Shown here one piece after another: positions 38,226 to 52,197 of a stretch of DNA of 64,000 nt (positions within the stretch are counted from its first letter, which is position 1; each line of letters starts with the position of its first letter). The notes beneath the pieces are model-generated. The model did not search any database and was not told the DNA's origin. It was given only the letters and a program-made list of their open reading frames with translations. The DNA lies in the NCBI GenBank assembly GCA_040753675.1, contig JBFMEB010000002.1, positions 41,888 to 105,887 of the forward strand, read 5' to 3'. Made by a program: the position numbers and the translations under genes. Origin of the DNA: Candidatus Omnitrophota bacterium. GTDB taxonomy: Bacteria > Omnitrophota > Gorgyraeia > JAHJTE01.

Positions 38226-38301
38226 TATTTTTGTACTTTTCTATTTATGTACATATTGCTATTGTTTTTCCTTTTGTCCATATTTCAGCATAAACAAAAA
38301 A

Positions 38302-38478
38302 CTACTTATTTGTCCTTACCTTGACAAACTCCTCTAAATCCTCTGGCTTAATCCTCCACTTCTTCATTTTAGTAGCTCTTAGTTGTTTGTTCTGGATAAG
38401 GTCACGAATCCAATCCTCGGTAACATCCAGTCTTTTAGCCACTTCTTTGACAGTAAGATATTTGGTAAGGTCAACCAT
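38302..38478 (-). CDS. excisionase/AlpA-type helix-turn-helix protein (58 aa)
   Basis: Hand-translated MVDLTKYLTVKEVAKRLDVTEDWIRDLIQNKQLRATKMKKWRIKPEDLEEFVKVRTNK. Typical Xis-family HTH. Below the track cutoff. Confidence 0.5.
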   Translation of the reverse strand: MVDLTKYLTVKEVAKRLDVTEDWIRDLIQNKQLRATKMKKWRIKPEDLEEFVKVRTNK

Positions 38479-38584
38479 AGTTTAGACTCCTAATAAATGC
38501 AGGGAAATATACGATTTGGTAACTTCCTATTGCTTACTATTGTATATCTTTAAGGTTGGAATGTCAAATAAACAAATCGTCTCT

Positions 38585-39343
38585 TTACCACCTCTTACAC
38601 AATTCCCTATACCCACATATCCCGCAGAAGTAATTTTCATCCGGGTAGAATATCCCAGTCTTTATCGCTTTAGAGACATAAGCGAGGATTTTAAGGAAGC
38701 GGTCTAAGTCTTGCTGTGTGCGCTGGGTAGTTAGTTGCTGGACTTTAGGCTTTTTGGTTCTGACCATTACATCAAAGCGAAGGGCCTTTTCTTTTAGGCC
38801 TAAGGCATGGCGGTAGGCAAGGGAATAGCAGGTAATCTGAAGGTCTGTGTTGATATTTTCTTCCGGCATAGAGCGCTTGGTAGTTTTATGGTCAATGATA
38901 ATGTCTTGGTTATCTACAAGATCAAGCTTTCCTTTTAAGGTATAGTCAACGTTCTGGAAGGAGAGGTCAAAGTCTTTCTCTACAACTTTGGGCTGAATAG
39001 TAGGTGAGATTTGGTTGTGGTAAGTAGTAATAAGGCCAACTCCTTCGTCTTTGACTTGGCCGGGCTTTTCGCCTTCTTCAAAGACCGTTTCCTTTACCTC
39101 GGATTCCCACAGATCCGAGAATAAGTCAGTTACCTGTTTAACCGGAAGGTCCTGTTTTGTCTTTATCTTTTGGGAATAGTTTATCTCTAAGGCGGAGTGG
39201 ATAGAACGTCCTAAGGTAATAGCACTAACAGGTGGTATCTTTAGTCCGTCAACATAGCGGAACTTATACTGCAAGGGACAGCGAAGATACATTTTAATCT
39301 GAGTTATAGATAAGTGATTGTTATTCATCTTTTTTACCTCCAT
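38585..39343 (-). CDS. PD-(D/E)XK nuclease, Cas4/RecB-like with Fe-S cysteines (phage-type)
   Basis: N-terminal Cys (YLRCPLQY) plus C-terminal CGICGYRELC, as in the Cas4/DUF83 family. Confidence 0.65.
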   Translation of the reverse strand: MEVKKMNNNHLSITQIKMYLRCPLQYKFRYVDGLKIPPVSAITLGRSIHSALEINYSQKIKTKQDLPVKQVTDLFSDLWESEVKETVFEEGEKPGQVKDEGVGLITTYHNQISPTIQPKVVEKDFDLSFQNVDYTLKGKLDLVDNQDIIIDHKTTKRSMPEENINTDLQITCYSLAYRHALGLKEKALRFDVMVRTKKPKVQQLTTQRTQQDLDRFLKILAYVSKAIKTGIFYPDENYFCGICGYRELCKRW

Positions 39344-39421
39344 CTTAATATGTCAATAAAGGGTCATTTTGTGACAGAAAAAGTAGGGCGGGCCCTCGAA
39401 TGAGAACCCGCCCCTTTCAAA

Positions 39422-39835
39422 CTAAACTGCCACTGCCATCAACTCATCGATTTTCTCAGATGCCTCCTGCATCGTGAGATTGTTTAGCCCCTCGATGAAT
39501 TGGCCTCTTTCTTTGGCAAGCCGGATAATAAGCGACTTCTGCTTGCCTGTTGCAGGAGCGTCAGGGTCCTTAAGCTGAGGCTTGCCGTTGCCGTTCTTTT
39601 CCCTTCGACTTTGCTCATGGCGAGTCGGCTGAGGCACCGTAACTTCCTCCTTAGGCGGAAACTCCAAAGGATCAGCGTCAGGATTAAGCTGGCGCTGAAT
39701 GGCGGCCTTTGCCAAAGCGAAGAGCTCATCAACGACTGTGTCAGCTTTATCTTTCGGCACGTCGCCGACTGTTTCAAAAGTGACTGAATAGGTATCACCG
39801 TTATTTTTGTAACCGTAATTCGCTAAGATTCTCAT
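39422..39835 (-). CDS. hypothetical phage protein
   Basis: ORF only. Acidic/Pro-rich centre. Confidence 0.35.
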   Translation of the reverse strand: MRILANYGYKNNGDTYSVTFETVGDVPKDKADTVVDELFALAKAAIQRQLNPDADPLEFPPKEEVTVPQPTRHEQSRREKNGNGKPQLKDPDAPATGKQKSLIIRLAKERGQFIEGLNNLTMQEASEKIDELMAVAV

Positions 39836-39852
39836 GGCATTTACCTCCTGTT

Positions 39853-40080
39853 TTAGAATCCCTTGTACCAGGATTCATTTTTAACGTTATCGCCTTGTCT
39901 GTGTGAACTGATAGGCTTAATTGTGCCAAGGCATTTTTTACACATAAGCCCATACTCCGTAGAAAAGCAATCCTCAACTGCAATGCCATCCTCATCAACG
40001 AGGAATTTATCGCAGTAATCACATACGCGAGGATCGCCTTCCTGAAGCGTTACTTTAATGATGAAAGGGTTATCATCCAT
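39853..40080 (-). CDS. small zinc-ribbon protein
   Basis: CDYC ... CKKC pairs. Confidence 0.3.
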   Translation of the reverse strand: MDDNPFIIKVTLQEGDPRVCDYCDKFLVDEDGIAVEDCFSTEYGLMCKKCLGTIKPISSHRQGDNVKNESWYKGF

Positions 40081-40095
40081 AGACTAATCACCTCT

Positions 40096-40383
40096 TCAAA
40101 GTTCGATTGCCTTGAGGTGGGCAACCGTCCATTTCTCTTTTTCTTCCAAGTTCTTTCCCCAGCCCATACGCAGAGCCTCTTGGTGGGTGGGGATATCGGT
40201 AAGCTCAATGAAAGAGTTAGACTTTACATAGTCAATGTGCTTACAGTGACGATAGTAAAGCCAGCCCTTGCAGTTACAGGAGAGCTCACCGGTAGAAAGC
40301 TTCCGTTTCACGAAATAAACATCACCTCCTTTTTTGGACTTGAATTTCGCTAAGGTCTCATATTTAAGGGCCATCTTCATCAC
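40096..40383 (-). CDS. SWIM zinc-finger protein
   Basis: CxCx(n)CxH pattern SCNCKGWLYYRHCKH. Confidence 0.45.
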   Translation of the reverse strand: MMKMALKYETLAKFKSKKGGDVYFVKRKLSTGELSCNCKGWLYYRHCKHIDYVKSNSFIELTDIPTHQEALRMGWGKNLEEKEKWTVAHLKAIEL

Positions 40384-40850
40384 CTCCCCTCATGAATGAC
40401 TGAGACCTCTAAACCTGCTTTCTGGGCAGCCTCAAAGGTAAATTTAGTACCCCTGGACTTACCGTCCCAGATGGCAAAGCACTCTTTTGATAAGCCGACC
40501 ATATAGAGATTGCGGGCAAGATAGGTAGAAGATAGCCTGATAACTTTACCGACTTTATCTAAAGCAAACTCATTACGGCACCTGCCGTGAGCGCCGACAA
40601 CAGTAACATGCTTGCCATAGCCGCGCCTAATTGCCTCGGCGACAACAAGGCGGTCAACACCGGGAGCATCGCCAACGACAATCTCAACGCCCCTATTGAT
40701 GAGCGTGTCAATGAGGAGCGATATATTTTCAGAGTGCGTAATGCTACGAGAGCCTGTAATAACCACATACTGCTTACTCATCGTTATCACCTCCCATAGT
40801 CTGGCCTTCGCCGTCTCTCTCGAAACCACAGTGCTCACACCAGGAGCCAT
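40380..40850 (-). CDS. SLOG/DUF2493-like Rossmann-fold protein (DprA/LOG superfamily)
   Basis: VVITGSRS...GDAPGVD...VTVVGAHG pattern typical of phage SLOG proteins. Confidence 0.45.
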   Translation of the reverse strand: MAPGVSTVVSRETAKARLWEVITMSKQYVVITGSRSITHSENISLLIDTLINRGVEIVVGDAPGVDRLVVAEAIRRGYGKHVTVVGAHGRCRNEFALDKVGKVIRLSSTYLARNLYMVGLSKECFAIWDGKSRGTKFTFEAAQKAGLEVSVIHEGR

Positions 40851-40902
40851 AACCTGGCATAATGTGGTAATCTGAACTATTGCAGACAGGACAACGCAAC
40901 AT

Positions 40903-41295
40903 CTAAATCACCTCCTCTAAGACATCACTGTGTCCCTGGACAAACTCCTCAAGAGACTCCCAAGCCTGAGGGACAAAGCCAGCTGAGATAAGCCGATGGA
41001 CATCCCTCATAAGACGACGCTCTTCTCTGACAGCAGAGGAACCAAAGGAATACGAAGGTAAATCCTCAAAAGAAGTGCGATACTGAGAATCGCGAGATGT
41101 AGAATATCTTTCCATACACGCATCCACACGCAACATGCCATCCTCAAACTTTCTTTCCTTTGCCGAACTATAAATATTTTTTTGCCGCATGGCGAACCTC
41201 CTTTCTTTTTTCGCCAAAAAAATAAGCCCAAGTATTTGACCCCGAAGGGTTACGCCACGATAGTGGCGTAATACCGAGCCTTTGAGGCAAACCAC
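40903..41295 (-). CDS. hypothetical protein
   Basis: ORF only. Confidence 0.35.
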   Translation of the reverse strand: MVCLKGSVLRHYRGVTLRGQILGLIFLAKKERRFAMRQKNIYSSAKERKFEDGMLRVDACMERYSTSRDSQYRTSFEDLPSYSFGSSAVREERRLMRDVHRLISAGFVPQAWESLEEFVQGHSDVLEEVI

Positions 41296-42124
41296 AAAGG
41301 CGAGGTAGAGATGAATTTTTCTAAAAAATTTTCTTGCACAAAAGTCAAATCTTGGGCATCTCTTAAAGCGAAAAAGAAAGGACGGTGAGGCAGAGGCAAA
41401 AAAGATACCTCAATCCGGTGAGGCAAAGGAAAGGACTAAAGAAGGATGGCGATGGATGCAGGATGAAGGAAAGCCGTTTTGGGGTCTGGGGCATTTTTCA
41501 AAAATGCCCCAGTGGGAGTTCAGAGGGCAAAGCCCTCTGACAGGCAGGCACTCTGCCGAAGACCGCCCTTACCTACTAAAAACTTGTATTTTTAAGGTGG
41601 TGAAATTCAGGTGGGGCGGGCTGAGGCAGAGGTGGACACGAGCGAGGCACAAAAAAGAGACACAAACTTTTCTCCCCTGTTGTTAAGGAACTCTCGGGAG
41701 AAAAGTTTTAGGGTTCGCCTGCTTGTCTTAAAGGCGAACGCTAAAAGTGTCTCTTAGCGAAAGCAAATCTTGCGAGTGAAACGAGCAAGTTTTGCGAAGC
41801 GATTTTTGTGCCGAGTGAGTGGACACGGCTGGCTTCGGCGTCGTTAGATACAGGTGATTTGAGGGATGGTGAGCTTGGTGAGGCGAAAACACCGAAGGTG
41901 GTTGAGCCCCGAGCACGCCAACCCGAAATGAGGAAAGCAGGCTAAGCCGAAGCCAGCCTGCCTGAAGTATATTGTTTATCTTCTATGTATAAATATACAA
42001 CAAAAAATTATCAGGATAAAAAATAGTAGTACTATTAGTGTCGAGAGGATATTCTTCACTTCCCTTTCAGCCTGTCTTTATAACTTTAACTAAGTTACTT
42101 AAACAACTATGCAAGTTAAAAAAG

Positions 42125-42577
42125 TTAGTGGAGTTTCAATTTCTTTACTGGTTCAATCTTTTCTTCAAGTTCCGTGCCACACTTAGGACATTTGCCTGGT
42201 TTTATATCAGAGATTTTACACATTGGGCATTCGTAGCGGACATCCTTCTCAATCAAATCGGATTTACACATCGGACATTTTCCCGGTTTATTCTGTGAGT
42301 AATCGCAAGTTGAACAGGAATATGTGTGGGCAACCTTTACCTTTTTTAGTTCCGTCTTGCAAGTTGGACAAATACCCGGCTTATCTTGTTCATATCCGCA
42401 ATTAGGGCACTGATAAACTTCCTTTATGCTCACCTTTGATTCTACCTCAGTGTCCTTTGTAACACCATTAGCTTCCTGTGCTTGTGCTTTAGGTATACAT
42501 CCTCCGCAGGCAAAAGATTTATACTGAGGACTAAATACTACCAAACCTCCTATTATTAAAATAAACAGCAACTTCAT
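42125..42577 (-). CDS. periplasmic protein with three tandem heavy-metal-binding (HMBD-like, YxCPxC..KPGxCPxC) repeats
   Basis: Signal peptide. Repeats YQCPNCGYEQDKPGICPTC, YSCSTCDYSQNKPGKCPMC, YECPMCKISDIKPGKCPKCG. Confidence 0.55.
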   Translation of the reverse strand: MKLLFILIIGGLVVFSPQYKSFACGGCIPKAQAQEANGVTKDTEVESKVSIKEVYQCPNCGYEQDKPGICPTCKTELKKVKVAHTYSCSTCDYSQNKPGKCPMCKSDLIEKDVRYECPMCKISDIKPGKCPKCGTELEEKIEPVKKLKLH

Positions 42578-42698
42578 AACTTATTCACCTCCTTTTCGAT
42601 TTCTCTTTTATCTCCCGCGCAAGAAAGAAGAAACAGCAGAAAATTATTATTGCAAAAAGCGATGCTCCCATGAAAATTAAAATGGACATTTTCATAAT

Positions 42699-42893
42699 TT
42701 AAGCTCTACATTCTCCACGCATAGATTTGTGAAAACACTCTAAACACTTAGGACACAACCCATCGCTACAGTTCCAATCGGGATGTTTCTTCTTAATCTC
42801 ATCGATAATGTGAAGCTCGGCATGATGAATATATTTTACTAAGTCTCTTTCAACCTTTTGGTTGCAGGTTGAGCAGATGTAGTATTCCGGCAT
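42699..42893 (-). CDS. small Cys-rich (zinc-ribbon-like) protein
   Basis: CSTC...CSDGLCPKCLEC pattern. Confidence 0.3.
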   Translation of the reverse strand: MPEYYICSTCNQKVERDLVKYIHHAELHIIDEIKKKHPDWNCSDGLCPKCLECFHKSMRGECRA

Positions 42894-42905
42894 TTTCTAT
42901 TTCCC

Positions 42906-44321
42906 CTATTCCACGCAACAGCTCATTCTTTTAGGATCATGTTTAAAGGATTGAGCAACAATTTTTATCGCTTCCGAAAAAGCGGGAAAGATATGCACGG
43001 TATCAATAATCTCATCTATGGTGAGACCAAATTTTACGGCTAAAGTTGCCTCATGAATTATCTCTGAGGCAAGGCTGGAAACTATATGCACACCCAAAAT
43101 TTTCTTTGTCTCATGGTCAAGCACCATAAAGATAAGACCTCTTGTATCTTTTATTGCTTTCGCCTTAGGAATTCTGTCCATCTTAACCGTTGAACATAAG
43201 CAGGTGCCGAATTTAACCATATAATCAGATTCTTTTATCCCCACACTGGCAACCTGTGGAGAGGTAAAGACAGCATAAGGGATACTATTAAAATCCATCT
43301 TAATCTTTGAATCTTTAAGCGCATTCTGCGTGGCAATATTTCCTTCTTTGGCAGCTACGGTCTCAAGCCACGGCGCTCCAATTATATCTCCTGCGGCATA
43401 AATATGAGGTTTTGCTGTCTGTAGGTAATCATTTACCTTAACAAATCCATTTTTATCCACTTCAATTGCGGTATTTTCTAATCCCAATTCTTGACTGTTT
43501 CCCATAACGCCCGTAGCTAATAAAATTTCTTCTGTTTCAATATTCTCAATATTCCCCTCCTTTTCAATCTGCACAATCTTTTTCTTATCCTTGCGAACGT
43601 TTTTTGTTTTTGCGCCGGTAATTATCCTTATTCCTTCATCCTCAAGAGACTTTCTTAATTCCTCAGAAACTACTGGCTCTGATTGGGGTAGAATGCGCTC
43701 CATTAACTCCACAATCGTAACTCGACTGCCTAATCTAGAAAAAATCTGTCCAAATTCCAAACCAATAGGGCCTGCCCCAATTACAATCAGGCTTTCGGGC
43801 AAACTCTTCAGTTCCAAGGCGGTGCGATTTGTTAAAAATCCAACCTCTTTTAACCCTTCGATGGGGATAATCTTCGTAGATGAACCGGTAGCGATGATAA
43901 ACTTAGAAGCAGAGAATTTATCGCCGTTTATTTCTATTTCATTTTGGGATATGAAATGTGCCTTACCTTCTTTAAAAGTTACTTTAGGTAGATTTTTAAG
44001 TACATCTTCGTAGTTAGATTTTCTTAAGGAATCGACCAAGATATTTTTCTCTTCAATAAGTTTAGTAAAATCGATCTTAGCAGAGGAAACTAAAGAATCA
44101 AAACGACTGTGATTTGCGTTATGATAATCACTTGCTACTTCTAATAAAAACTTTGTGGGCACACAGCCGACATTTACACATGTACCACCCATAGGCAAAC
44201 CTGAATTTACCATTAAGGTCTTGGCCCCTAATTCATCTGCCTTAATTGCTGCAGCAAAACCCGCAGCGCCACCACCAATAATGATTAAATCAAATTTATT
44301 ATCTGAAATAGAACAGCACAT
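42906..44321 (-). CDS. merA: mercuric reductase-like class I pyridine nucleotide-disulfide oxidoreductase
   Basis: Redox-active GGTCVNVGCVPTK, FAD/NAD Rossmann motifs, and a C-terminal vicinal Cys pair (...RMSCCVE) characteristic of MerA. No NmerA domain. Confidence 0.65.
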   Translation of the reverse strand: MCCSISDNKFDLIIIGGGAAGFAAAIKADELGAKTLMVNSGLPMGGTCVNVGCVPTKFLLEVASDYHNANHSRFDSLVSSAKIDFTKLIEEKNILVDSLRKSNYEDVLKNLPKVTFKEGKAHFISQNEIEINGDKFSASKFIIATGSSTKIIPIEGLKEVGFLTNRTALELKSLPESLIVIGAGPIGLEFGQIFSRLGSRVTIVELMERILPQSEPVVSEELRKSLEDEGIRIITGAKTKNVRKDKKKIVQIEKEGNIENIETEEILLATGVMGNSQELGLENTAIEVDKNGFVKVNDYLQTAKPHIYAAGDIIGAPWLETVAAKEGNIATQNALKDSKIKMDFNSIPYAVFTSPQVASVGIKESDYMVKFGTCLCSTVKMDRIPKAKAIKDTRGLIFMVLDHETKKILGVHIVSSLASEIIHEATLAVKFGLTIDEIIDTVHIFPAFSEAIKIVAQSFKHDPKRMSCCVE

Positions 44322-44340
44322 TTGCTTTCCTCCTTGCTTT

Positions 44341-44898
44341 TTAAGGCTGACAAATTTTCAATCCTTTTCTTACAAATCTCTCAAAATCTTTTAAGGCTTT
44401 CTTCTGAATCGGGTTGATATGAACTTCTGGCCGCTTATCTTTTACGAAATTAATTGCATCTTTTGTATTCATCTTCTGCGTTAGAATTAAAAAACTTGCT
44501 ACAAAGGTTAGAGAGCGGCTGTGGCCGTGTTCGCAATGGACATAGGTTTTTATCTTCTGGTCAGTTAAAGATTTTAAGAAACAGCTACCAGCTAAAAGCT
44601 GTTCAGGCGAAAGCGGCTTGTGCTCTTTTGTAGGAAGCCACAAGTAAAATTTTACCCCGAAAGGCGTATCAATCTTCTCTCTTTCTAAACTTATATCTGC
44701 CCTTATTCCTTTTTTAAGTAATTCTTTAATAAACCTCTTTTCTTCACAGCATTTGTTTGTGCCTATGTAGATATATTTGGTAATCTTAGAATAGCCAAAA
44801 GGCAAATCATCCGGATGGCGCATTATTTCCTCCCCAAGAATAGATGAAAGAAGCAACAAAGAAACAATAAAATCACCGCGATTAGATAAATTATCCAA
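44341..44898 (-). CDS. dual-specificity/protein-tyrosine phosphatase-like protein
   Basis: CX5R P-loop VHCEHGHSRS. Confidence 0.55.
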   Translation of the reverse strand: MDNLSNRGDFIVSLLLLSSILGEEIMRHPDDLPFGYSKITKYIYIGTNKCCEEKRFIKELLKKGIRADISLEREKIDTPFGVKFYLWLPTKEHKPLSPEQLLAGSCFLKSLTDQKIKTYVHCEHGHSRSLTFVASFLILTQKMNTKDAINFVKDKRPEVHINPIQKKALKDFERFVRKGLKICQP

Positions 44899-44902
44899 TC
44901 TT

Positions 44903-45490
44903 TCATTCCGCAGTCTCTTTTATTTCTCCGGGCGCACTGGCTTTATAACCAGTTTTATTTACGGCTTCAATGAGCTTGTTTAAATTTGTCTTTTTAGGGT
45001 CGAAGGCAACCTTAACTTTTCCTTCTTTAGCTGAGGCAGTGGCTTCAATTACACCATCTACTTTTTTAAGGCTAGATGAAACAGTAAGTTCACAAGTCAA
45101 ACAAGTCATTCCTTTAACTGGAATAATAATACTTTCAAGATTAGCTACAGAGGTTTTTGGGATAATACTGCTTGGCTTAGCTGTATAGGTATACAAATTT
45201 AAACCTACAAAGAAGGCGACAATAATAGTTGCCACTATTAAAGTGATTAGAGTTGCTTGCTTATTCTCCATCTGGCAACCTTTTAAGTTACAGGCCCTTC
45301 TTTCCTTAAAATAGTACTTCCAAGCAATGATAATTAACAAAACACCCGCACCCACAAACCACCAGTGATATTTCCCAATCACTGCGCCTATGCCAAGACT
45401 CCCTAATCCTACCATAACCAGCAAAAGTGGTCCCACACAACAAATCGAAGCAAAGATCGCTGAAAATATACCTAAATTTTTTGCTTTCAT
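44903..45490 (-). CDS. MerT-like membrane protein fused to C-terminal HMA (MerP-like) domain
   Basis: N-terminal TM with vicinal CC (ASICCVGPLL). C-terminal GMTCLTCE heavy-metal-associated fold. Confidence 0.55.
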   Translation of the reverse strand: MKAKNLGIFSAIFASICCVGPLLLVMVGLGSLGIGAVIGKYHWWFVGAGVLLIIIAWKYYFKERRACNLKGCQMENKQATLITLIVATIIVAFFVGLNLYTYTAKPSSIIPKTSVANLESIIIPVKGMTCLTCELTVSSSLKKVDGVIEATASAKEGKVKVAFDPKKTNLNKLIEAVNKTGYKASAPGEIKETAE

Positions 45491-45556
45491 AGAATACCTC
45501 CAACCCGCAGGAGGAAAGGAAACACCCTTAAAATGCTCCTATCCTCCTTCTAGAAT

Positions 45557-45805
45557 TTACGCAAAGAGACTTTTTACTTCTGCCAAACTCGGCTTTCCCA
45601 TCAGTCTAATCTTACCATCCACAACTACCGTAGGAACAGCCTTGATTCTATAATCCAAGGCTGGCTCACAGCATTCATCACCTTGGCATCTTCTTTCAAT
45701 TATCTCGCATTCACTACAAGCCTCTTGCCTTAAGATGCGTAATGTATCTTTGCAAAGAGGACAATCTGCTGTGAATACCTCAATTTTTCTCTTCATTTGA
45801 AACAC
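45557..45805 (-). CDS. glutaredoxin/thioredoxin-like small redox protein
   Basis: CPLC active-site-like motif near the N-terminus, 82 aa. Confidence 0.45.
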   Translation of the reverse strand: MFQMKRKIEVFTADCPLCKDTLRILRQEACSECEIIERRCQGDECCEPALDYRIKAVPTVVVDGKIRLMGKPSLAEVKSLFA

Positions 45806-45810
45806 CTCCT

Positions 45811-46107
45811 TTACTTTGCAAACTTATAGATTATATCCATAAGTTCATTATAGATTTCTTCTTGTTTCTCCTTACGTTTAGACTGCATTGCATCGGTAGC
45901 ACATATCTCTAAATAATTTCGCATCAGAACCTTACTTACACCTCTTAGGGCTTCGAAGGTAGAGGAGACCTGTTGCAGTATATCCAAACAGTAACGTTCA
46001 TCTTCTATCATATTTTTCATACCTTTAATTTGCCCCTCAATACGGCTTAAACGATCTAAAAGTTCCGATTTTCTTTCTTTGGAAATACAGCCTTTTTTTG
46101 TAGCCAT
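45811..46107 (-). CDS. CsoR/RcnR/FrmR-family metal-sensing transcriptional repressor
   Basis: LDRLSRIEGQIKGMKNMIEDERYCLDILQQ... matches the DUF156 signature including the conserved Cys. Confidence 0.8.
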   Translation of the reverse strand: MATKKGCISKERKSELLDRLSRIEGQIKGMKNMIEDERYCLDILQQVSSTFEALRGVSKVLMRNYLEICATDAMQSKRKEKQEEIYNELMDIIYKFAK

Positions 46108-46212
46108 TTTTAGCCTCCTATATAGATATACTCCCTACCACTATAAGTATACCCTATAAAAAAGATTTGTCAAGAGAATTCTTTTCTTGGATATTGAGTG
46201 TAGCAAACCGAG

Positions 46213-46446
46213 CTAAAGCCTGCCTAATGAGAGCCTTATAGACATTACTAGATACTCAAGACATCTATCACAACCAAGTAAATGTTTTATAATTCTGTTT
46301 CGTTCTTTTCTACTTAATAATCCCTCTACAAAGCAGGCCAAAGTTTCTTCATCTGGACATCTCCTCTTGCGCTGAGGGAGATTCTTCTTCCAATGCCTGT
46401 AGACAACCCGAATAAGGTTTTCTAAGTGACTATTCTTTAATTTCAT
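46213..46446 (-). CDS. zf-HC2 (anti-sigma-factor-type) zinc-finger protein
   Basis: CPDEETLACFVEGLLSRKERNRIIKHLLGCDRC matches the H-x3-C-x2-C anti-sigma zinc finger. No TM segment. Confidence 0.45.
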   Translation of the reverse strand: MKLKNSHLENLIRVVYRHWKKNLPQRKRRCPDEETLACFVEGLLSRKERNRIIKHLLGCDRCLEYLVMSIRLSLGRL

Positions 46447-46805
46447 TTAGACAAAAATATCATAAGAAGTATCCGTCGTAATCTCTTCTTCCATTTATTC
46501 CAGGCCAAGAGATTTGGATTCCTTCTTCGCCTTTTACCTACTTTGCTAAATCTTTCCAGCCAGCGGTCAAATCTTATGGAGAGGATATCGCCAATGCCAT
46601 TGCCACAGCCATAGATGAGGATTAACCAGACATGGTGCAAATTCTCTACCACAATCACGATTACATAGTACCAAAGTAAAATTGAGATAACTGAAACGAT
46701 AAAGCTTAAAATCTGCCTATTCTTTTGTATCGTCTTGGTGTTGAAGGCAGAGAAAAAACTTTCCAGTGCTCCTACAATAAAAATCTTGATAGCATTTAGA
46801 ATCAT
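46443..46805 (-). CDS. hypothetical membrane protein
   Basis: Hydrophobic helices, basic C-terminus. 4-bp overlap with the downstream gene. Confidence 0.35.
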   Translation of the reverse strand: MILNAIKIFIVGALESFFSAFNTKTIQKNRQILSFIVSVISILLWYYVIVIVVENLHHVWLILIYGCGNGIGDILSIRFDRWLERFSKVGKRRRRNPNLLAWNKWKKRLRRILLMIFLSK

Positions 46806-46808
46806 AGA

Positions 46809-47174
46809 TTATCTTTTTCCTTCATTAGCAATTCTATCGCCGATAAAGTAAACAATCGCCGCATCACGTATAAATCCGATTATCTCTTTGAAGTCATCTT
46901 TTAAGGTATGATATTTCGAGACCATTACGGTTGTCTCGGCTTCATATTTCTGGCTTAATTCTTTGCTTAATTCTTCAGGGGTCTTATTCTTGCAGGATAT
47001 CTCCCCTGCTAAAGGAAGGCTTATCTTCTGGTCTGGGCGGACGATAGTCTTTTCATCTAATTTCTTCCAGATGACAACCCTTAATTCGTCTCCCACTCTT
47101 AAGCGATAGTCGCCTGCTGTGGCGCAGCCGGAAATAATAATTGAAATGCATAAAATTAAAGCAACATGTTTCAT
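46809..47174 (-). CDS. lipoprotein with polysaccharide-export (Wza N-terminal, Poly_export)-like domain
   Basis: Lipobox IISGC. YRLRVGDELRVVIW...ISLPLAGEIS pattern. Confidence 0.5.
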   Translation of the reverse strand: MKHVALILCISIIISGCATAGDYRLRVGDELRVVIWKKLDEKTIVRPDQKISLPLAGEISCKNKTPEELSKELSQKYEAETTVMVSKYHTLKDDFKEIIGFIRDAAIVYFIGDRIANEGKR

Positions 47175-48223
47175 CTCGATATCTCCTTAAATTCCGTTAT
47201 GGTTAAATCTGCATGGGCAACATAAAGGCTCTGATTCTTTAATTTCTCTAAGAATTCACTTGGACAATAGGAAAGGATGAGTTTATTTCCTTGATTGGGG
47301 TCTATTCTGATGACTTTGTATTCCTTCTCCTCGAATGACCAGAGGATGTCTTTTATGTTCTCGTAGCCTTCGTAGAAGATAAAGCCAGAGATTATGGAGT
47401 TTTTAGGAATATCTATTGAGTCAAAGAGGCAGTAGGAGTATTCCTTGTCTGAGACCTGTTTTTGGATTTTCTTTCCTAAGATGACATTTATCTTGTTTAT
47501 GATGATGGCTGAGTAGGCCCTATAGGTTACAAGGTAGATTCTGTCTTTGTTGTCTTCTATGATTAGGCCTTCATCTAAGACAGCTAATACAGAGAATTCC
47601 TCATCTACCGGCATCTGGGATTCAGCCCAGATGCCTTTTATTCTTACTTTGATGAGGTAATTCTCGGAGTATTTCTTTGCTTCCTCTATGGCGCCGTAGG
47701 TGGTCTGGGAAATTCTATAGAATAAAGACTTATAGCCGATAAAGGATAAGGGTGTGGTTATAGTTACAAGGAAAATCAATATGGCAAGCAGGATATATTC
47801 CCTCTTTGAGTTTACCTCAATACGCAAGGATTTATTCTCTGGAAAGACAAATCTTGAGGGGCTTGGGTAAAAGAAGGGAACTCCAGATATATTCGCCATA
47901 TCGAGCATAATATGGGAGATAATGCCTATGATTAGGCCTGCGTATTTAAGCAATCCTAAAAAGAAGATAAAGGGACTGAAAAGAAATAGGCTTATTATGA
48001 TAAATATCCAAGAATGGGTAATCTGTCTGTGGCCATATTTCTGCTCAATTATCTTAGAAGGTGGGAATATCTTGCCTATGGCTGATTTAGGGGTGTCTAT
48101 ATCTGGTAAAAGAGAGCCTATACCGCTTAATGCTAAGGTTGTGGTATTTGGCTCTATTCCTAAGCTGGTTAGGATAAACTCTGTTAAAAGCACTCCAAAG
48201 GATATATGGGTAACTGAGATCAT
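47171..48223 (-). CDS. membrane protein, N-terminal DUF457/YdjM-like metal-dependent hydrolase region
   Basis: MISVTHISFGVLL...LLPDIDTPKS start typical of the DUF457 family. Several TM helices. Confidence 0.4.
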   Translation of the reverse strand: MISVTHISFGVLLTEFILTSLGIEPNTTTLALSGIGSLLPDIDTPKSAIGKIFPPSKIIEQKYGHRQITHSWIFIIISLFLFSPFIFFLGLLKYAGLIIGIISHIMLDMANISGVPFFYPSPSRFVFPENKSLRIEVNSKREYILLAILIFLVTITTPLSFIGYKSLFYRISQTTYGAIEEAKKYSENYLIKVRIKGIWAESQMPVDEEFSVLAVLDEGLIIEDNKDRIYLVTYRAYSAIIINKINVILGKKIQKQVSDKEYSYCLFDSIDIPKNSIISGFIFYEGYENIKDILWSFEEKEYKVIRIDPNQGNKLILSYCPSEFLEKLKNQSLYVAHADLTITEFKEISR

Positions 48224-49179
48224 TGCTGGGCTCCTCTTCTTGCCTGTCTGTAAAGTAGATACCGGATAAATATGCCTATGCCTGTTAAGGCGCCAAATAA
48301 GGCGTAACCTTGGTATTCGCCAAAGCCTCTGTATACGAATCTCATCACGATAAAGAAGGCAAAGATTAGAATCACAAATGGCGAGGCATCAATCTCTTTT
48401 ATGCCGCTTCCGTGGATGAACATCTCTCTGACATAGGATTTTGTTATAACTTTTTGGGTCTTGGCGCGGTTTAGGGTTTCAACGATTGATAAGGGTATGC
48501 CTGAGGTATTGGCTATGACTTGATTGATGAAGAAGTCTCTGCATTTGACTTTTAGACGTTTTAATCTGATCAATCTATCTACAAGCAGTTTTGATTCATC
48601 CTTTGTTAGGGGTTCTATTTCGATGATATCAAACTGCCAGAAGAATCTTCGTAAGGTCCTTATTCTTCTTATGAATTGGCAGGCGCCGAAGATAATGCAG
48701 AGGCTTGAGAGCTCTTGTAATATGTCTGCGGTAGATGAGGTGATTTCCTCTAAGTGGTCAAAGATGAGGATAAAGGGCCTGGTTTTTGATTTTTCTTCTA
48801 GAAGTAGGATTACCTCCTCAGTAAGTTCTGTGACGGTTAAGCGTTTAATCTGTTTTTGTTGTTTCTGGGAGACTTTTTTCTTTAAGGTTATGTAAAGATT
48901 GATAAGCGTTTCTTTGACGGGTTTGAATTTCTCGATATAAAGATAAGGCCTTCTTTTTTCTTTAAGATGCTGGCAGAGGAGCTTTAAGATATGGGTCTTA
49001 CCTGTGCCGGGCTTTCCTAAAAGAAGGGTAGGAATTCCTTCATCTAAATTCTTGATGAGCTTCTTTAGTTCTTCTTCTCTGCCTATTGTGAAGTTAAGGA
49101 GATGTTGATCCATTGGTAAAGTCTTCCTTTCTAAAGGAGAAGGAAAATACCTTGTCGTAGACAGCGCCTTGGAATACAT
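48220..49179 (-). CDS. AAA family ATPase (ExeA/TniB-like) with C-terminal membrane helices
   Basis: Walker A LLLGKPGTGKTH, Walker B LIFDHLEE. Confidence 0.6.
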   Translation of the reverse strand: MYSKALSTTRYFPSPLERKTLPMDQHLLNFTIGREEELKKLIKNLDEGIPTLLLGKPGTGKTHILKLLCQHLKEKRRPYLYIEKFKPVKETLINLYITLKKKVSQKQQKQIKRLTVTELTEEVILLLEEKSKTRPFILIFDHLEEITSSTADILQELSSLCIIFGACQFIRRIRTLRRFFWQFDIIEIEPLTKDESKLLVDRLIRLKRLKVKCRDFFINQVIANTSGIPLSIVETLNRAKTQKVITKSYVREMFIHGSGIKEIDASPFVILIFAFFIVMRFVYRGFGEYQGYALFGALTGIGIFIRYLLYRQARRGAQQ

Positions 49180-49762
49180 AAGTTATCTGGATTGAGACTT
49201 TGTAGTAGGGCTGGTCTGTTATAAGATAGAGTTTAAAGTCTGCCTCTGGGCCTCTTTTTAGGTTCTGGCCTACTACCCCTACGCTTGAAAGGACATATCT
49301 TATCCTGTCATTTGAGATTTTTACAGAGATATCGGATAAGATTTCGATGAAGATATCTTGTATCTTCTCAGCTGATGAGACTTTAATTTTCAAGATATCG
49401 CCTTTTAGGTCTGCCTTTACATCTAAGCCGACATCAGGGCCTTTTGGTTCGATTAAGGGAACGAAGGTTTCTTTCATAGTCTTATATTCTCCTATCCATT
49501 CTTTTACTGTGTATTGGACTGTGAATTTGGTTTTTATGTTAGATACATTTATCCTCTGCCCTTGCTTTAGGCCTCCTAAGTAGCGGTAGAAGGGAAAAAT
49601 TATTTCCAGGTGAAGAATATCCTTTTTTCCTGTGTTTATGAGGTATCTTCCATCGTAGATGAGCTTGGATTTTGGAGAATAGGTCTTCTGTTCTTCTTCG
49701 GCATAGAGAAGGCTTGTTGCGATAAAGAGAATTAGGATCAAGGTTATCCATTTTGGCTTCAT
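49094..49762 (-). CDS. secreted hypothetical protein
   Basis: Signal peptide MKPKWITLILILFIATSLLYA. Confidence 0.4.
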   Translation of the reverse strand: MKPKWITLILILFIATSLLYAEEEQKTYSPKSKLIYDGRYLINTGKKDILHLEIIFPFYRYLGGLKQGQRINVSNIKTKFTVQYTVKEWIGEYKTMKETFVPLIEPKGPDVGLDVKADLKGDILKIKVSSAEKIQDIFIEILSDISVKISNDRIRYVLSSVGVVGQNLKRGPEADFKLYLITDQPYYKVSIQITYVFQGAVYDKVFSFSFRKEDFTNGSTSP

Positions 49763-49967
49763 TTAGTTCTCCTGATTGTCTATATCTACGATATATTCAG
49801 AGCTCTGATAGTGGATTGAGATTACCCTTGAGTCACGAATTTCGATGATTATCATTCCCCTTTTTGTGCCTTCAATCTTCGATTTAATCCAAACGATTAA
49901 TTTGTTGTGTAAGGGTGCATGTGTTGTGTTCCAGTCCTTGGTCATTTTAGAACCCTCCTTTCGTTTT

Positions 49968-50510
49968 TTATTTGCAGTCTTCCAAGAGAGAATTGAAATA
50001 CCGGATAAATTCCTCTGCGACTTGTTTTGATTTAATGAGCACATTCGATTCGTTGTTCTTGGATAAGGCGTAATAAGACCAGTTTGTGCTTCCTATGATT
50101 GTGATGTAGCGGTCTATGACGATGAGTTTGTTGTGGGTTGAGGTATAAAGGCTGTCGTAGTAGACTTTGATACCTCTATTTTCAAGCACCTCTCCTGTTT
50201 CATAGTTTTTGTCTGAGTTAGCTTTTCCGAAGTCTTTTGACTGTTCAAGGATAACTATTACTTTAACTCCCCTTTGAGTTGCATCGGCTAATGCTTCGAT
50301 AAGAAGATTTGTGGGGGTTGAATAATATTTACGATAATACCTTGCCTCATACATAACGATATAGATTGATTCCTTGGCTCCAGATATAGCCTTGTGCACT
50401 ACCTCAAAGTAGTCTTGATTATTCAAAGGCAATACATCATCGGCTGGAAGGGCGAATACAATTTGAGTGATGGTAAGTAATGCTACTAAGGTTAATATTA
50501 ACTTTCTCAT
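49968..50510 (-). CDS. secreted phospholipase-D-family (Nuc-like) endonuclease
   Basis: Signal peptide. HKD motif HNKLIVID...GSTNWS. Confidence 0.75.
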   Translation of the reverse strand: MRKLILTLVALLTITQIVFALPADDVLPLNNQDYFEVVHKAISGAKESIYIVMYEARYYRKYYSTPTNLLIEALADATQRGVKVIVILEQSKDFGKANSDKNYETGEVLENRGIKVYYDSLYTSTHNKLIVIDRYITIIGSTNWSYYALSKNNESNVLIKSKQVAEEFIRYFNSLLEDCK

Positions 50511-50512
50511 TT

Positions 50513-50833
50513 TTAGGGCCTCCTTTGAATTAAGTTAAGAAAATCTTTTAGGTTTAAGATTATGTAGTTGGCCTTATCGTTTTTGTACTTAAAGACCAGA
50601 AGCGGTATCCTGCCCTGAGCTTGTGCTTCTTTTTCAATTTTCTTAAGCCAATCTTTTTCTATCGCAATCTGCTTCTTGCCAGATGAGCCGCGAAGTTTAC
50701 ATTCAATTAAAAACTTATCTGTAATCACATCACCAGGCATAGAAGACAAGCTTCCACTTAAAGGAATTCTTTTACCTCCTATGAGTCTTGCTATTCTTCT
50801 TTCCATTGCTTTGTGGGTATTTTTGTGTGTCAT
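50513..50833 (-). CDS. Hjc-like Holliday-junction resolvase / PD-(D/E)XK nuclease
   Basis: GxERRxARLIGG...GS...DV...IECK...pattern of archaeal-type Hjc resolvases. Confidence 0.45.
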   Translation of the reverse strand: MTHKNTHKAMERRIARLIGGKRIPLSGSLSSMPGDVITDKFLIECKLRGSSGKKQIAIEKDWLKKIEKEAQAQGRIPLLVFKYKNDKANYIILNLKDFLNLIQRRP

Positions 50834-50931
50834 TTGTGTTTGTGTGTTTTAAATATAAATATAAAGCGAAAATCTTGAGATACCTCCAAAACCCTCCCAC
50901 CCATCGCATACTTTTTAAAAAACTATCCCAC

Positions 50932-51270
50932 TCATTGCACAGTTTTAGGGGTAATCTCACCTTGGCAGTGGTTGATATTGGCTAATGTGCCTTTACCTTG
51001 TCTATTAGGGTTCTTTCCTAACCGGTAAGGATAAAGAGCGCAGTCTGTAAAATTGCACTCTTTGACTTCCTTCCATTCAAACCCAGAGCAGTCATAACAG
51101 CGCATCTTTATTGCTTTAAGGACCGGCTCTTTAAAGCCTTCTGCTCTTTTTCCCTGTCTTAAAGGATGGATGGGGCAATCTTCAGCCGGGCAAAGTTTTA
51201 CTTCCTTTGGCTGATCACCACAGCACCAGAAGCAATACTTTTTAACTGCGTATAATGGACCTGTTCTCAT
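50932..51270 (-). CDS. Cys-rich hypothetical phage protein
   Basis: Multiple CxxC/CxxxC motifs. Confidence 0.3.
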   Translation of the reverse strand: MRTGPLYAVKKYCFWCCGDQPKEVKLCPAEDCPIHPLRQGKRAEGFKEPVLKAIKMRCYDCSGFEWKEVKECNFTDCALYPYRLGKNPNRQGKGTLANINHCQGEITPKTVQ

Positions 51271-51896
51271 CTTGCCACCTCCTCGCCAAATTCCTGCCTT
51301 ATAACTTCGCCTATAAGAACCGGCTCTTTTAGGCGCTCTTTAAAATTGGATTTTCTGTTTTTAAAGAATTGAGATTGAGAAAAATTCCCCTTTTCTTTAA
51401 TACTTTCTTTATATATATTTCTTTCTTTATTTTGTGTGGTGTCCTGCAAGACACCTTTTAAGGTGTCTTGGGGGACACCACCTGGTGTCTTACAGGACAC
51501 CTCTGGGGTGTCTCTCAAGACACCACCTTTTAAAGTTATCCACAACTTCCACTGTGGATATCTCTTATTTAAGCCAAGGATGTTTTTGGTTCTATTTTTC
51601 TCTTTGACAAGCACTCGGTCGTTGATTAACTGCTCTACTACCTTTTTGACATAGCGCTTGTTTAAGCCGGTTAGATAAGAGATAACTCCGTAACTTATCT
51701 CTGATTTTTTCTTACGCCAGCCATAGGTCTTTCTCATAACGACCAAGAGCACTTTAATCTGGGCAGCAGTGAAAGGATAAGCGATAATTGCCTCTAAAAG
51801 CTCATTGGCAATTCGCGTATGACCTTTCTCAAGCTGGGGGCTACCTATTCTCAAAGTCAAACTCCTTCTGATACCTGATGCCAAATTTATCCTCAA
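51267..51896 (-). CDS. phage replisome-organizer/replication initiator (lambda O-like N-terminal HTH)
   Basis: N-terminal HTH region (VISYLTGLNKRYVKKVVEQLINDRVL). Gene body contains four ori-type iterons. Confidence 0.55.
   Translation of the reverse strand: MRINLASGIRRSLTLRIGSPQLEKGHTRIANELLEAIIAYPFTAAQIKVLLVVMRKTYGWRKKKSEISYGVISYLTGLNKRYVKKVVEQLINDRVLVKEKNRTKNILGLNKRYPQWKLWITLKGGVLRDTPEVSCKTPGGVPQDTLKGVLQDTTQNKERNIYKESIKEKGNFSQSQFFKNRKSNFKERLKEPVLIGEVIRQEFGEEVAR
51438..51524. repeat. four iterons GGTGTC-N6-GACACC (putative phage origin)
   Basis: 18-bp units at 51438, 51462, 51484 and 51507, spacing 22-24 bp. Each unit has perfect 6-bp inverted arms. Confidence 0.7.
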
Positions 51897-52197
51897 CTGC
51901 CTTGCTTAATCTCTTGGCCCTGTTGGCCACTTCTTTTACTCTTGACCAGTACTGCCTTAGACATTGGAGCGCTTCATCTTTATCTGTGATAAGGTAGAAG
52001 CCGTAAGGGTAATTGACTGATGAGGCAATGGGTATCTCGTGGTAAATGACAAGATTTGCTACTGCTTTTCTAATCTTACGCGATGAGGCTAGGGTCATCC
52101 TTTCTAACTCCTGAACTGTAATAGGATTATCCTTACCCTTATGGCACTCAAGAATATGAAGAATTGTCTGCTCTAAACTGTTCATCTTAGGAGGCAT
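51841..52197 (-). CDS. hypothetical phage protein
   Basis: ORF only. Confidence 0.3.
   Translation of the reverse strand: MPPKMNSLEQTILHILECHKGKDNPITVQELERMTLASSRKIRKAVANLVIYHEIPIASSVNYPYGFYLITDKDEALQCLRQYWSRVKEVANRAKRLSKAVEDKFGIRYQKEFDFENR

What the first reader, a model, noticed from the sequence alone, without database searches (positions are those of the whole stretch)
41296..42040. GC-rich ~700-nt non-coding island with multiple perfect hairpins inside the prophage (candidate large structured RNA or element junction)
There is no convincing ORF; the only candidates are two short ORFs of 62-76 aa with odd composition. Local GC is clearly above the surrounding ~38%. Perfect palindromes include GGGGCATTTTT-C-AAAAATGCCCC (41492-41514), CAGAGGGC-AAA-GCCCTCTG (41521-41539) and GGCAG-GCACT-CTGCC. 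A 13-bp long-range inverted pair GGCTGGCTTCGGC (41838-41850) / GCCGAAGCCAGCC (41947-41959) is present. A GGTGAGGCA direct repeat occurs at 41384-41392 and 41428-41436. Prophages are known hosts of large ornate ncRNAs (GOLLD, ROOL, HEARO classes). This could be such an RNA, an intron/IS fragment, or a foreign segment joining two elements.
Basis: seen in the sequence. Interest (0 to 1): 0.6.

Follow-up and report, generated by a model that had tools for sequence, protein, structure and literature searches.

The report
New large structured RNA in Omnitrophota element
The flagged non-coding stretch is a real, evolutionarily conserved, intricately folded nucleic-acid element of about 0.5-0.6 kb, most likely a previously undescribed large non-coding RNA, carried by a family of integrated mobile elements of the uncultured phylum Omnitrophota and always found next to one particular small-gene/nuclease operon.

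Summary
Window 41191-42124 is a 930-nt gene-free gap, and 41296-41970 folds far better than shuffles (z about -9.8). The flagged interval contains two things.

1. 41178-41403 is the long-hairpin 5' leader of the minus-strand 95-aa gene (p95). Its Shine-Dalgarno and start region pairs with an upstream pyrimidine tract.

2. About 41480-41964 is a multi-branched structured domain. I found 11 full and 4-5 reduced homologues in Omnitrophota genomes and metagenomes. All fold the same way. In the central 200-nt domain, 95% of cells are paired and 25 of 61 pairs show compensatory double changes (0/500 shuffles).

There is no Rfam match and no conserved ORF. The domain occurs in 23/24 evaluable loci that carry the SLOG/zinc-finger/DUF3072/Cas4-like nuclease operon, and in 0/38 other p95 loci. 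It sits in a roughly 19-kb integrated element (serine recombinase, cI-like repressor, RepO) beside a tRNA-Thr gene. It abuts a variable cargo region, which is a mercury/metal operon in this window.

Best reading: a new class of large structured ncRNA on the + strand, function unknown. The strand, and RNA versus ssDNA, are inferred and not shown.

The parts
40903..41190 (-). p95 gene (95 aa, ATG at 41190, GGAGG RBS). First gene of the operon that the structured element always accompanies.
   Evidence: 39 homologues, nearly all from Omnitrophota or metagenomes. No Pfam, PHROG or NCBIfam hit.
41178..41403 (-). p95 leader: a ~230-nt long hairpin. The SD/start arm (41178-41232) pairs with the pyrimidine-rich anti-SD arm (41351-41403 on the minus strand, which is the purine/GGTGAGGCA tract on the + strand). 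Apex hairpins lie at 41250-41271, 41272-41307 and 41309-41333. A conserved TTGACT lies at 41343-41348 (minus).
   Evidence: Inverted repeat of 33 nt. Folds give z -8.1 (DNA, + strand) and -8.5 (RNA, - strand). The profile of the leader matches its own reverse complement; the leader is conserved in ~100 loci and often present twice per locus. SD pairs with an upstream pyrimidine tract in about 22 of 29 distinct loci.
41404..41479 (+). Purine-rich spacer carrying the second GGTGAGGCA copy. Its length varies between loci (0 to ~390 nt).
41486..41540 (+). Optional peripheral hairpins A (41486-41512) and B (41520-41540). They are absent in L106, L018, L036 and L096.
   Evidence: Compensatory changes seen: GGGGCAUUUUU/AAAAAUGCCCC versus GGGGAAUUU/AAAUUCCCC, and CAGAGGGC/GCCCUCUG versus UUGGGGC/GCCCCAA.
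41541..41631 (+). 5' strand of the closing helix P1 (41541-41549), helix P2 (CUCUGCC/GGCAGAG) and the variable hairpin C.
   Evidence: P2 covaries: it is CUGCGCC/GGCGCAG in L065, L075 and L056.
41631..41832 (+). Central domain D. It contains helix P3 with a tandem G.A (GUGGACAC/GUGGACAC), GA-rich internal loops, P4/P5, and three hairpins around a junction.
   Evidence: All 11 homologues fold independently to the same architecture. Of 61 pairs, 95% of cells are paired and 25 show both-side changes, 0/500 shuffles. Covariance model R1 scores 207.8 bits here.
41827..41964 (+). Domain E, closed by the 13-bp helix 41827-41839/41946-41958, plus the 3' strand of P1 (41956-41964). The 3' strand 41955-41961 can alternatively pair with the internal 41937-41943.
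41965..42124 (.). Unconserved AT-rich flank up to the stop of the HMBD gene, where the variable cargo region begins. It contains the palindrome 42024-42037, which looks like a weak terminator for the cargo operon.
   Evidence: Homology to all related loci ends at 41964-41973. Palindrome.
38585..40902 (-). Rest of the co-occurring operon: a 42-aa Zn-ribbon, a SLOG/DprA-like protein, a 95-aa CxC..CxH protein, a 75-aa Zn-ribbon, a 137-aa DUF3072-like protein, and a 252-aa PD-(D/E)XK/Cas4-like exonuclease.
   Evidence: Co-occurrence with the structured element is 23/24 versus 0/38.

Best explanation
Window ~41480-41964 (up to ~41377-41964 with its purine-rich 5' extension) encodes a previously undescribed class of large (~0.5-0.6 kb), highly base-paired, multi-domain non-coding RNA. 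It is read from the + strand, divergent from the p95 operon. The RNA has a conserved core: closing helix P1, helix P2, a GA-rich irregular helix P3/P4, a junction with three hairpins, and a 3' domain closed by a 13-bp helix. Peripheral hairpins are gained and lost between lineages. It belongs to a family of integrated mobile elements of Omnitrophota and is inherited together with one specific operon (p95, SLOG/DprA-like, two or three small zinc-finger proteins, a DUF3072-like protein, a Cas4-like PD-(D/E)XK exonuclease). I therefore infer that it acts as an RNA together with, or on behalf of, these proteins, as a scaffold, partner or regulator. A possible conformational switch exists at its 3' end, where the last 7-9 nt can pair with either of two upstream strands.

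Shown: conservation, covariation-supported structure, absence of coding potential, absence from Rfam, and linkage to the operon.

Inferred: that the folded molecule is RNA, that the + strand is the functional one, and any functional coupling to the operon.

The left ~110 nt of the flagged interval are a separate device. They form half of the p95 leader hairpin, which hides the p95 ribosome-binding site in any transcript entering from upstream.
For: The fold is far better than shuffles. Homologues were found in 11 distinct full-length and 4-5 reduced forms at 64-88% identity. All 11 give the same domain-D architecture when folded independently. Domain D has 61 pairs, with 95.0% of cells paired against 85.4% in shuffles; 25 pairs and 73 cells show double changes (0/500 shuffles), and slid controls give at most 7 pairs. 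RNAalifold on the full-length alignment found 19 of 54 pairs compensatory. Peripheral hairpins are inserted or deleted while the core is kept, for example an extra hairpin in L105 and a minimal domain E in L096.

Strand asymmetry favours the + strand. Conserved tandem 5'-GA/3'-AG motifs occur at about 4 sites. The P3 tandem is replaced by Watson-Crick pairs in L036 and L018. Loops are GAAA, GGAA or GAA, and unpaired positions are G295/A258 against U152/C104.

There is no Rfam family in the window or in 13 homologous loci. ORFs are not conserved. Linkage to the operon type is 23/24 versus 0/38. The setting is a mobile element.
Against: No transcription data are available. I found no convincing conserved sigma-70-like promoter upstream on the + strand and no conserved intrinsic terminator after 41964. 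G.U pairs are rare (about 1.5% of helix cells) and no more frequent than A.C (11 vs 14; 9 vs about 6 real ones). Wobble pairs therefore do not identify the strand, and the near-exclusive Watson-Crick pairing with 13-15-bp perfect stems is unusual for a functional RNA. The SD/anti-SD leader implies that minus-strand transcripts do enter from this side. All related loci were retrieved through p95, so whether the RNA occurs without the operon could not be tested. The operon linkage could partly reflect shared ancestry of one element lineage.
Confidence: 0.6

Rival explanations
1. The structured domain is transcribed on the minus strand as a very long (~800 nt) structured 5' leader of the p95 operon. 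In this reading it acts as a cis-regulatory device upstream of the anti-SD tract and controls whether the p95 ribosome-binding site is exposed.
For: All neighbouring genes, including the upstream cargo, are on the minus strand. The SD/anti-SD pairing, conserved in about 22/29 loci, only makes sense if minus-strand transcripts start upstream of 41403. A promoter-like TTTATA-16-TATACT ends 1 nt before the conservation boundary in the window, and weak -10-like boxes sit 4-13 nt before it in L030, L091, L092 and L105. The minus strand also folds with z -9.8. Wobble counts do not favour either strand.
Against: On the minus strand the conserved tandem G.A motifs become U.C/C.U mismatches. The loops become UUUC or CUUC, and unpaired regions become pyrimidine-rich. 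Nine of 14 loci have no promoter-like site at the boundary. L065 has a strong terminator hairpin immediately upstream of the element in this orientation. The spacer between the domain and the leader varies from 0 to ~390 nt. p95 leaders work without the domain in at least 38 loci.
Confidence: 0.2
2. The structure acts in single-stranded DNA and not in RNA, as a single-strand origin, priming site or ssDNA promoter (sso/ssi/Frpo-like). It would be used when the element is transferred or replicated as ssDNA. The + strand, which is the template for the operon, would be the folded strand.
For: Helices are ~96% Watson-Crick, with G.U as rare as A.C, and contain many 13-15-bp perfect stems. C-GAA-G type loops are also very stable in DNA (my own knowledge). 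The folded + strand is the template strand of a co-oriented operon of small mobile-element genes. The ~230-nt hairpin leader is repeated upstream of successive gene modules in other loci, which recalls the repeated Frpo/ssi elements of plasmid leading regions (PMC11541004).
Against: No relaxase, T4SS, oriT or HUH Rep lies near. The element carries a serine recombinase and a RepO-like initiator. No -35/-10 pair lies within the stems in the orientation Frpo requires (my reading of the sequence). Known ssDNA signals are simple hairpins of 300 nt or less, not ~500-nt multi-junction folds with conserved GA-rich internal loops (established knowledge; PMC11541004 describes Frpo as a promoter-mimicking hairpin of 50-350 bp regions).
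Confidence: 0.1
3. It is a divergent member of an already described RNA family (GOLLD, ROOL, HEARO/omega RNA, group I/II intron, RNase P, tmRNA) that the models miss.
For: The location in a mobile element resembles GOLLD and ROOL. Weak sub-threshold Rfam hits were seen: BTnc231 22 bits, RNaseP_arch 14 bits, SSRC8_2 15.6 bits.
Against: All hits are far below gathering scores, cover small or mis-stranded parts, and none recurs. A gathering-score search of the window and of 13 homologous loci finds nothing in the element. No IscB, TnpB, RT or intron ORF is adjacent.
Confidence: 0.03
4. It is a decayed gene or a chance collection of palindromes with no function.
For: Short ORFs of 45-76 aa are present.
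Against: z is about -9.8. Compensatory changes are seen across 11-16 homologues. ORFs are broken in close homologues.
Confidence: 0.02

Closest known systems
GOLLD and ROOL (large 'ornate' bacterial ncRNAs, often in or next to prophages)
   Same: Size class (~0.5-0.8 kb). Multi-domain fold supported by covariation. Carried by mobile elements. No known biochemical function from sequence. Variable peripheral hairpins around a conserved core.
   Different: No sequence or structure match to their Rfam models. Different phylum (Omnitrophota). No neighbouring tRNA cluster. Tight linkage to a specific protein operon. Unusually long perfect helices and very few G.U pairs.
HEARO / omega RNAs of IscB and TnpB (large structured RNAs encoded beside a nuclease in a mobile element, ending at a module boundary)
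   Same: A large structured RNA co-inherited with a nuclease gene inside a mobile element. Conservation stops abruptly at one end of the RNA, next to variable DNA.
   Different: The nuclease here is a small PD-(D/E)XK/Cas4-like exonuclease, not RuvC/HNH. The RNA is divergent from the operon and about 2.5 kb from the nuclease gene. There is no evidence for a guide segment, no IS200/605 ends and no Rfam match.
Fold-back inhibition of IS10/IS50 transposase mRNAs (applies to the 41178-41403 leader only)
   Same: An inverted repeat upstream of the start codon pairs with the SD/start region, so transcripts entering from outside are not translated.
   Different: The hairpin here is ~230 nt with three apex hairpins. 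It precedes a non-transposase gene and recurs as a cassette before successive gene modules. No transcript mapping is available. This is a resemblance recalled from knowledge, not tested.
Frpo/ssi single-stranded-DNA promoters of plasmid leading regions
   Same: Hairpin-forming non-coding modules of 200-300 nt, repeated upstream of co-oriented small mobile-element genes. The folded strand would be the template strand.
   Different: There is no conjugation machinery or oriT and no -35/-10 pair in the stems. The large domain is multi-branched rather than a single hairpin (PMC11541004).

Membership tests
Any Rfam 15 family (4227 models, including GOLLD, ROOL, HEARO, OLE, raiA, group I/II introns, RNase P, tmRNA, 6S) | Covariance-model score at or above the family's gathering threshold | tested here: not met
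   Whole window at gathering score: the only hit is Intron_gpI at 57211-57440. Region 41100-42200 at E<=10: best hit is 22.3 bits against an 80.4 gathering score. 13 homologous loci: only a tRNA, elsewhere.
Structured functional RNA (generic) | Secondary structure conserved through compensatory base changes in homologues | tested here: met
   61 pairs; 95% of cells paired; 25 pairs with both-side changes; 0/500 shuffles; slid controls <=7. 11/11 independent folds agree.
Structured functional RNA (generic) | Is transcribed as a discrete RNA from a defined strand | not testable with these tools
   No expression data. Promoter and terminator scans were inconclusive. The + strand is inferred from G.A tandems, GNRA-like loops and purine-rich loops.
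HEARO / omega RNA (IscB, TnpB) | Adjacent IscB or TnpB (RuvC-type) nuclease gene and IS200/605-type ends | tested here: not met
   Pfam, PHROG and NCBIfam searches of all seven operon proteins and the flanking genes show none.
Group II intron / retron / DGR RNA | Reverse transcriptase gene nearby; domain V/VI or msr-msd models | tested here: not met
   No RT domain in neighbouring ORFs. No Rfam hit.
Frpo/ssi ssDNA promoter | Lies in the leading region next to the oriT of a conjugative element | tested here: not met
   No relaxase, T4CP or T4SS domains between 24 and 58 kb. The element has a serine recombinase and RepO.
Frpo/ssi ssDNA promoter | Hairpin stem that reconstitutes -35 and -10 hexamers | tested here: inconclusive
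   The leader is a long hairpin, but no sigma-70 pair sits on the arm where Frpo geometry needs it (and my reading). Omnitrophota promoter consensus is unknown.
Protein-coding gene or pseudogene | ORF and reading frame conserved in homologues | tested here: not met
   Frameshifting indels and in-frame stops in L001 and L106 (87-89% identity) for all three candidate ORFs.
   Serine recombinase, cI/LexA-like, GemA-like and RepO-like genes are present. No capsid, tail or terminase hit among ORFs at 38-57 kb. It looks more like an integrative or satellite-like element.

The most novel reading that the evidence does not exclude
The RNA is the RNA component of a new RNA-protein system of mobile elements. 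In this reading, a ~0.5-kb scaffold, possibly a switching or catalytic RNA, works with the co-inherited SLOG/zinc-finger/Cas4-like nuclease operon in an RNA-dependent DNA transaction, such as RNA-directed targeting, cargo capture at the adjacent variable region, or anti-defence. It would be functionally analogous to omega RNA/IscB but built from unrelated parts.
Probability: 0.1. Interest if true: 0.85.

Novelty: new variant of a known kind. Interest (0 to 1): 0.68.

Why it matters
Only a handful of large (>400 nt) bacterial non-coding RNA classes are known. Each one that was solved (HEARO as IscB omega RNA; OLE, ROOL and GOLLD as giant assemblies) revealed new biology. This would add a new class from an uncultured, poorly understood phylum, and it comes with two unusually clean handles for experiments. 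One is a strict genomic partnership with a defined six- or seven-gene operon that includes a Cas4-like nuclease. The other is a position exactly at the edge of a hypervariable cargo region of a mobile element. The adjacent leader hairpin also suggests a reusable 'translate only from my own promoter' cassette in these elements.

Tried and rejected
- **BLASTN of 41200-42100 against phage and plasmid collections:** no match.
- **The search for related loci with p95 alone in viral contigs:** nothing.
- **Two degenerate core patterns in viral contigs:** nothing. My second pattern only fitted one sub-type.
- **Exact-protein look-up of the SLOG ORF from its longest start:** not on record, probably a start-codon issue.
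- **Wobble-pair (G.U vs A.C) strand test:** uninformative.
- **Promoter at the conservation boundary (minus orientation):** my first fuzzy-anchor script mislocated boundaries. Redone with explicit coordinates, it gave only 5/14 loci with weak sites.
- **Sigma-54 and sigma-70 readings of the conserved TTGACT/TTGGGCA region:** no consistent spacing across loci (my reading).
- **att-type direct repeat of the RNA 3' end, or of the tRNA-Thr 3' end, elsewhere in the window:** none.
- **A small + strand ORF starting at GTG 41385 ('MRQRQK', resembling p95 'MRQKN'):** rejected. The resemblance follows automatically from the anti-SD arm being the complement of the SD/start region. In L083 the equivalent ORF is 11 codons.
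- **AlphaFold model of p95:** low confidence (pLDDT 69.9, pTM 0.41), so I did not use it for fold search.
- **Formal pair counting for hairpins A and B:** abandoned because MAFFT put hairpin B out of register between sub-types. I described these by direct reading instead.

Full report
**What is at the coordinates**

The interval lies in a 930-nt gene-free gap, 41191-42124. On the left is the start of a minus-strand 95-aa gene that I call p95 (ATG at 41190, GGAGG ribosome-binding site). On the right is the stop of a minus-strand heavy-metal-binding zinc-ribbon gene.

Folded as RNA, 41296-41970 gives -267.5 kcal/mol on the + strand and -225.1 on the - strand. Both are about 9.8 standard deviations better than dinucleotide shuffles.

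GC of about 0.50 exceeds the right flank (0.36-0.40) but matches the gene island on the left. No Rfam 15 model matches the region at gathering score or, credibly, at E<=10. BLASTN against phage and plasmid collections finds nothing.

**Getting relatives**

p95 is 100% identical to a hypothetical protein of a Candidatus Omnitrophota MAG. It has 39 relatives, nearly all Omnitrophota or unassigned metagenome proteins. An alignment of these retrieved 80 metagenome loci and 15 genome loci. Exact-protein look-ups added 11 more.

BLASTN and iterated nhmmer with the window sequence show that the flagged interval is two different things:

- Window 41194-41239 and 41271-41405 are conserved in about 70-100 loci, often twice per locus about 3.8 kb apart.
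- Window ~41377-41964 has homologues only in a subset: L001, L106, L030, L091, L105, L092, L100, L018, L036 and L096, with partial copies in L081 and L104.

In every case homology stops at window 41964-41973.

**The leader (41178-41403)**

This segment matches its own reverse complement. It folds into a ~230-nt hairpin, with z -8.1 as DNA and -8.5 as minus-strand RNA. The base of the hairpin pairs the p95 Shine-Dalgarno and start region (41178-41232) with a pyrimidine tract on the minus strand (41351-41403).

The same SD-to-upstream-pyrimidine pairing is predicted in about 22 of 29 distinct loci. The anti-SD sequence tracks the local SD-to-ATG spacer; for example, CAUAAGCCUCCUUUC pairs with GAAAGGAGGCUUAUG in L065. 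I read this as fold-back control: transcripts that enter from upstream cannot translate p95. This is an inference by analogy with IS10-type fold-back inhibition.

A Frpo-like ssDNA promoter was considered because the module is repeated before successive gene cassettes (PMC11541004). However, no -35/-10 pair sits where that geometry requires one, and no conjugation genes are present.

**The large structured domain (~41480-41964)**

Read on the + strand, it contains:

- two optional hairpins, A and B;
- a closing helix P1 (41541-41549/41956-41964);
- helix P2 with a variable hairpin C;
- a 200-nt central domain D (41631-41832);
- a 3' domain E, closed by the 13-bp helix 41827-41839/41946-41958.

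All eleven full-length homologues, folded one at a time, give the same domain-D architecture. Sequence replacements pair-for-pair, for example ACUUUUCUCCC/GGGAGAAAAGU versus CCCUUAAUGA/UUAAGGG versus UCCUUGACACC/GGCGUCAAGGA. L105 carries an extra inserted hairpin.

On the MAFFT alignment of domain D, the consensus of 61 pairs has 95.0% of cells paired, against 85.4% in shuffles. 25 pairs and 73 cells show changes on both sides, and no shuffle in 500 reaches these values. Sliding the partners by 1-3 columns gives at most 7 such pairs. A covariance model of domain D (R1) recovers the 11 sequences at 139-208 bits. It also finds four reduced variants (L095, L065, L075, L056), which keep P1, P2 (now CUGCGCC/GGCGCAG), P3 and the 3' helix.

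The short ORFs are broken by 1-, 2- and 4-nt indels and by stops in homologues that are 87-89% identical. The element is real, conserved and non-coding.

**Which strand, and RNA or DNA?**

Wobble pairs do not decide the strand. G.U and A.C are about equally rare (11 vs 14 cells; 9 vs about 6 genuine ones in the model-based alignment). Helices are roughly 96% Watson-Crick, which is unusual for an RNA.

The asymmetric features all point to the + strand:

- Conserved tandem 5'-GA/3'-AG motifs occur in P3, in the P3/P4 internal loops and in hairpin D3.
- The P3 tandem is replaced by Watson-Crick pairs in L036 (GUGCCCAC/GUGGGCAC) and L018.
- Loops are GAAA, GGAA or GAA.
- Unpaired positions are purine-rich, G295/A258 against U152/C104.

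Neither orientation has a consistent sigma-70-like promoter or terminator. L065 has a bidirectional terminator hairpin 5 nt beyond the + strand 3' end. I therefore favour a + strand RNA (about 0.6). I keep a minus-strand leader (about 0.2) and an ssDNA signal (about 0.1) as live rivals.

**A possible switch**

The last 7-9 nt (41955-41964) can pair in two ways. One partner is the 5' P1 strand. The other is an internal copy of the same sequence (41937-41943), giving a local hairpin that is predicted in 10 of 13 homologues. In L091 and L100 the 3' strand and the internal strand changed together, while P1 remains possible through G.U pairs. This is suggestive only.

**Context and linkage**

The surrounding genes are not a classical prophage. 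From 57.2 kb down to about 38.3 kb, the element carries the following, all on the minus strand except the recombinase:

- a large serine recombinase;
- a cI/LexA-like repressor;
- GemA-like and phage RepO-like genes;
- PLD and PD-(D/E)XK nucleases;
- an AAA ATPase, YdjM and Poly_export;
- a metal-resistance cargo (CsoR-like, thioredoxin, MerT/HMA, phosphatase, MerA-like, HMBD);
- the structured element;
- the p95 operon;
- a small excisionase-like HTH ORF.

No virion genes were hit, and 1-24 kb holds host core metabolism.

L030, L081 and L096 share the order [AAA, YdjM, Poly_export] - variable cargo - structured element - p95 operon. Other loci have arsenic, toxin, nuclease or defence-like genes in the cargo position. 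The sharp end of conservation at 41964 is therefore the border with a hypervariable cargo slot inside a family of elements. In L081 an IS256-type transposase has replaced most of the element.

The structured element is present in 23 of 24 evaluable loci whose p95 is followed by the SLOG/zinc-finger/DUF3072/Cas4-like operon. It is present in none of 38 loci where p95 precedes other genes such as ThiF/JAB or DUF6876. That linkage is the best clue to function. It may partly reflect shared descent, and all loci were ascertained through p95.

**Comparison with known systems and verdict**

By size, fold complexity and mobile-element setting, the element resembles the large ornate RNAs GOLLD and ROOL. 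By its partnership with a nuclease operon and its abrupt end next to variable DNA, it recalls omega/HEARO RNAs. It fails every testable membership criterion for these and all other Rfam families (no IscB, TnpB or RT). I found no paper describing such an RNA in Omnitrophota.

I rate it a new class within the known kind 'large structured ncRNAs of mobile elements'. I have high confidence that the structure is real and selected, moderate confidence that it is a + strand RNA, and its mechanism is unknown.

Noticed in passing
window 57163-57513 (minus strand): A tRNA-Thr(UGU) gene is interrupted in its anticodon loop by a ~275-nt group I intron. The Rfam Intron_gpI hit is at 57211-57440 (79.8 bits). 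After removing 57206-57480, ARAGORN calls a 76-nt tRNA-Thr(tgt). The plain ARAGORN run missed it. Its 3' exon overlaps the end of the serine recombinase ORF in antisense, so it is probably the integration site of the element.
   Followed up: partly
window ~38300-57210: A ~19-kb integrated element without detected virion genes. It carries a large serine recombinase (55561-57210, +), a cI/LexA-like repressor (54554-55273), a GemA-like gene, a phage RepO-like gene (51267-51896), PDDEXK_15 and PLD nucleases, metal-resistance cargo (42125-46446), the p95 operon, and a 58-aa excisionase-like HTH ORF (38303-38476, minus). Its left end was not defined, and I found no att repeat.
   Followed up: partly
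window 39344-39381 and 53162-53199: A 38-nt direct repeat (79% identical; CTTAATATGTCAAT...TTGTGACA) lies just upstream of the PD-(D/E)XK gene and of a 108-aa gene 13.8 kb away. It looks like a shared operator or promoter, which would tie both ends of the region to one regulatory circuit.
   Followed up: no
L083/L016 1782-2123 and 5643-5985; also L021, L031, L037, L047, L051-L053, L055, L087, L089, L090: The ~230-350-nt p95-type leader hairpin occurs twice per locus about 3.8 kb apart. Each copy heads a cassette of small genes (for example ThiF-like E1 plus JAB, DUF6876). It appears to be a reusable leader/promoter cassette in Omnitrophota islands.
   Followed up: partly
L081 3029-4262 and 5425-5608: In Omnitrophica GWA2_41_15, an IS256/Mutator-family transposase and a PLD nuclease occupy the cargo slot. 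Only hairpins A and B of the structured element remain, so this looks like a natural disruption of the element.
   Followed up: partly
many related loci (e.g. L005, L008, L013, L027, L061, L066, L079, L086): Contigs very often end within 20-1000 nt upstream of p95, inside or next to the leader or structured region. This suggests assembly breaks caused by repeats or strain variation at the cargo junction.
   Followed up: no
L065 ~40-105 (reverse complement shown): A strong GC-rich hairpin flanked by A-rich and U-rich runs (a bidirectional terminator) sits 5 nt beyond the 3' end of the structured element. This is consistent with convergent transcription of the element and the upstream gene in that locus.
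   Followed up: no
window 26575-28975: Zeta-toxin-like, ParB-HTH and rve-family transposase genes lie between host genes. This is a separate small mobile or toxin-antitoxin patch, unrelated to the finding.
   Followed up: no
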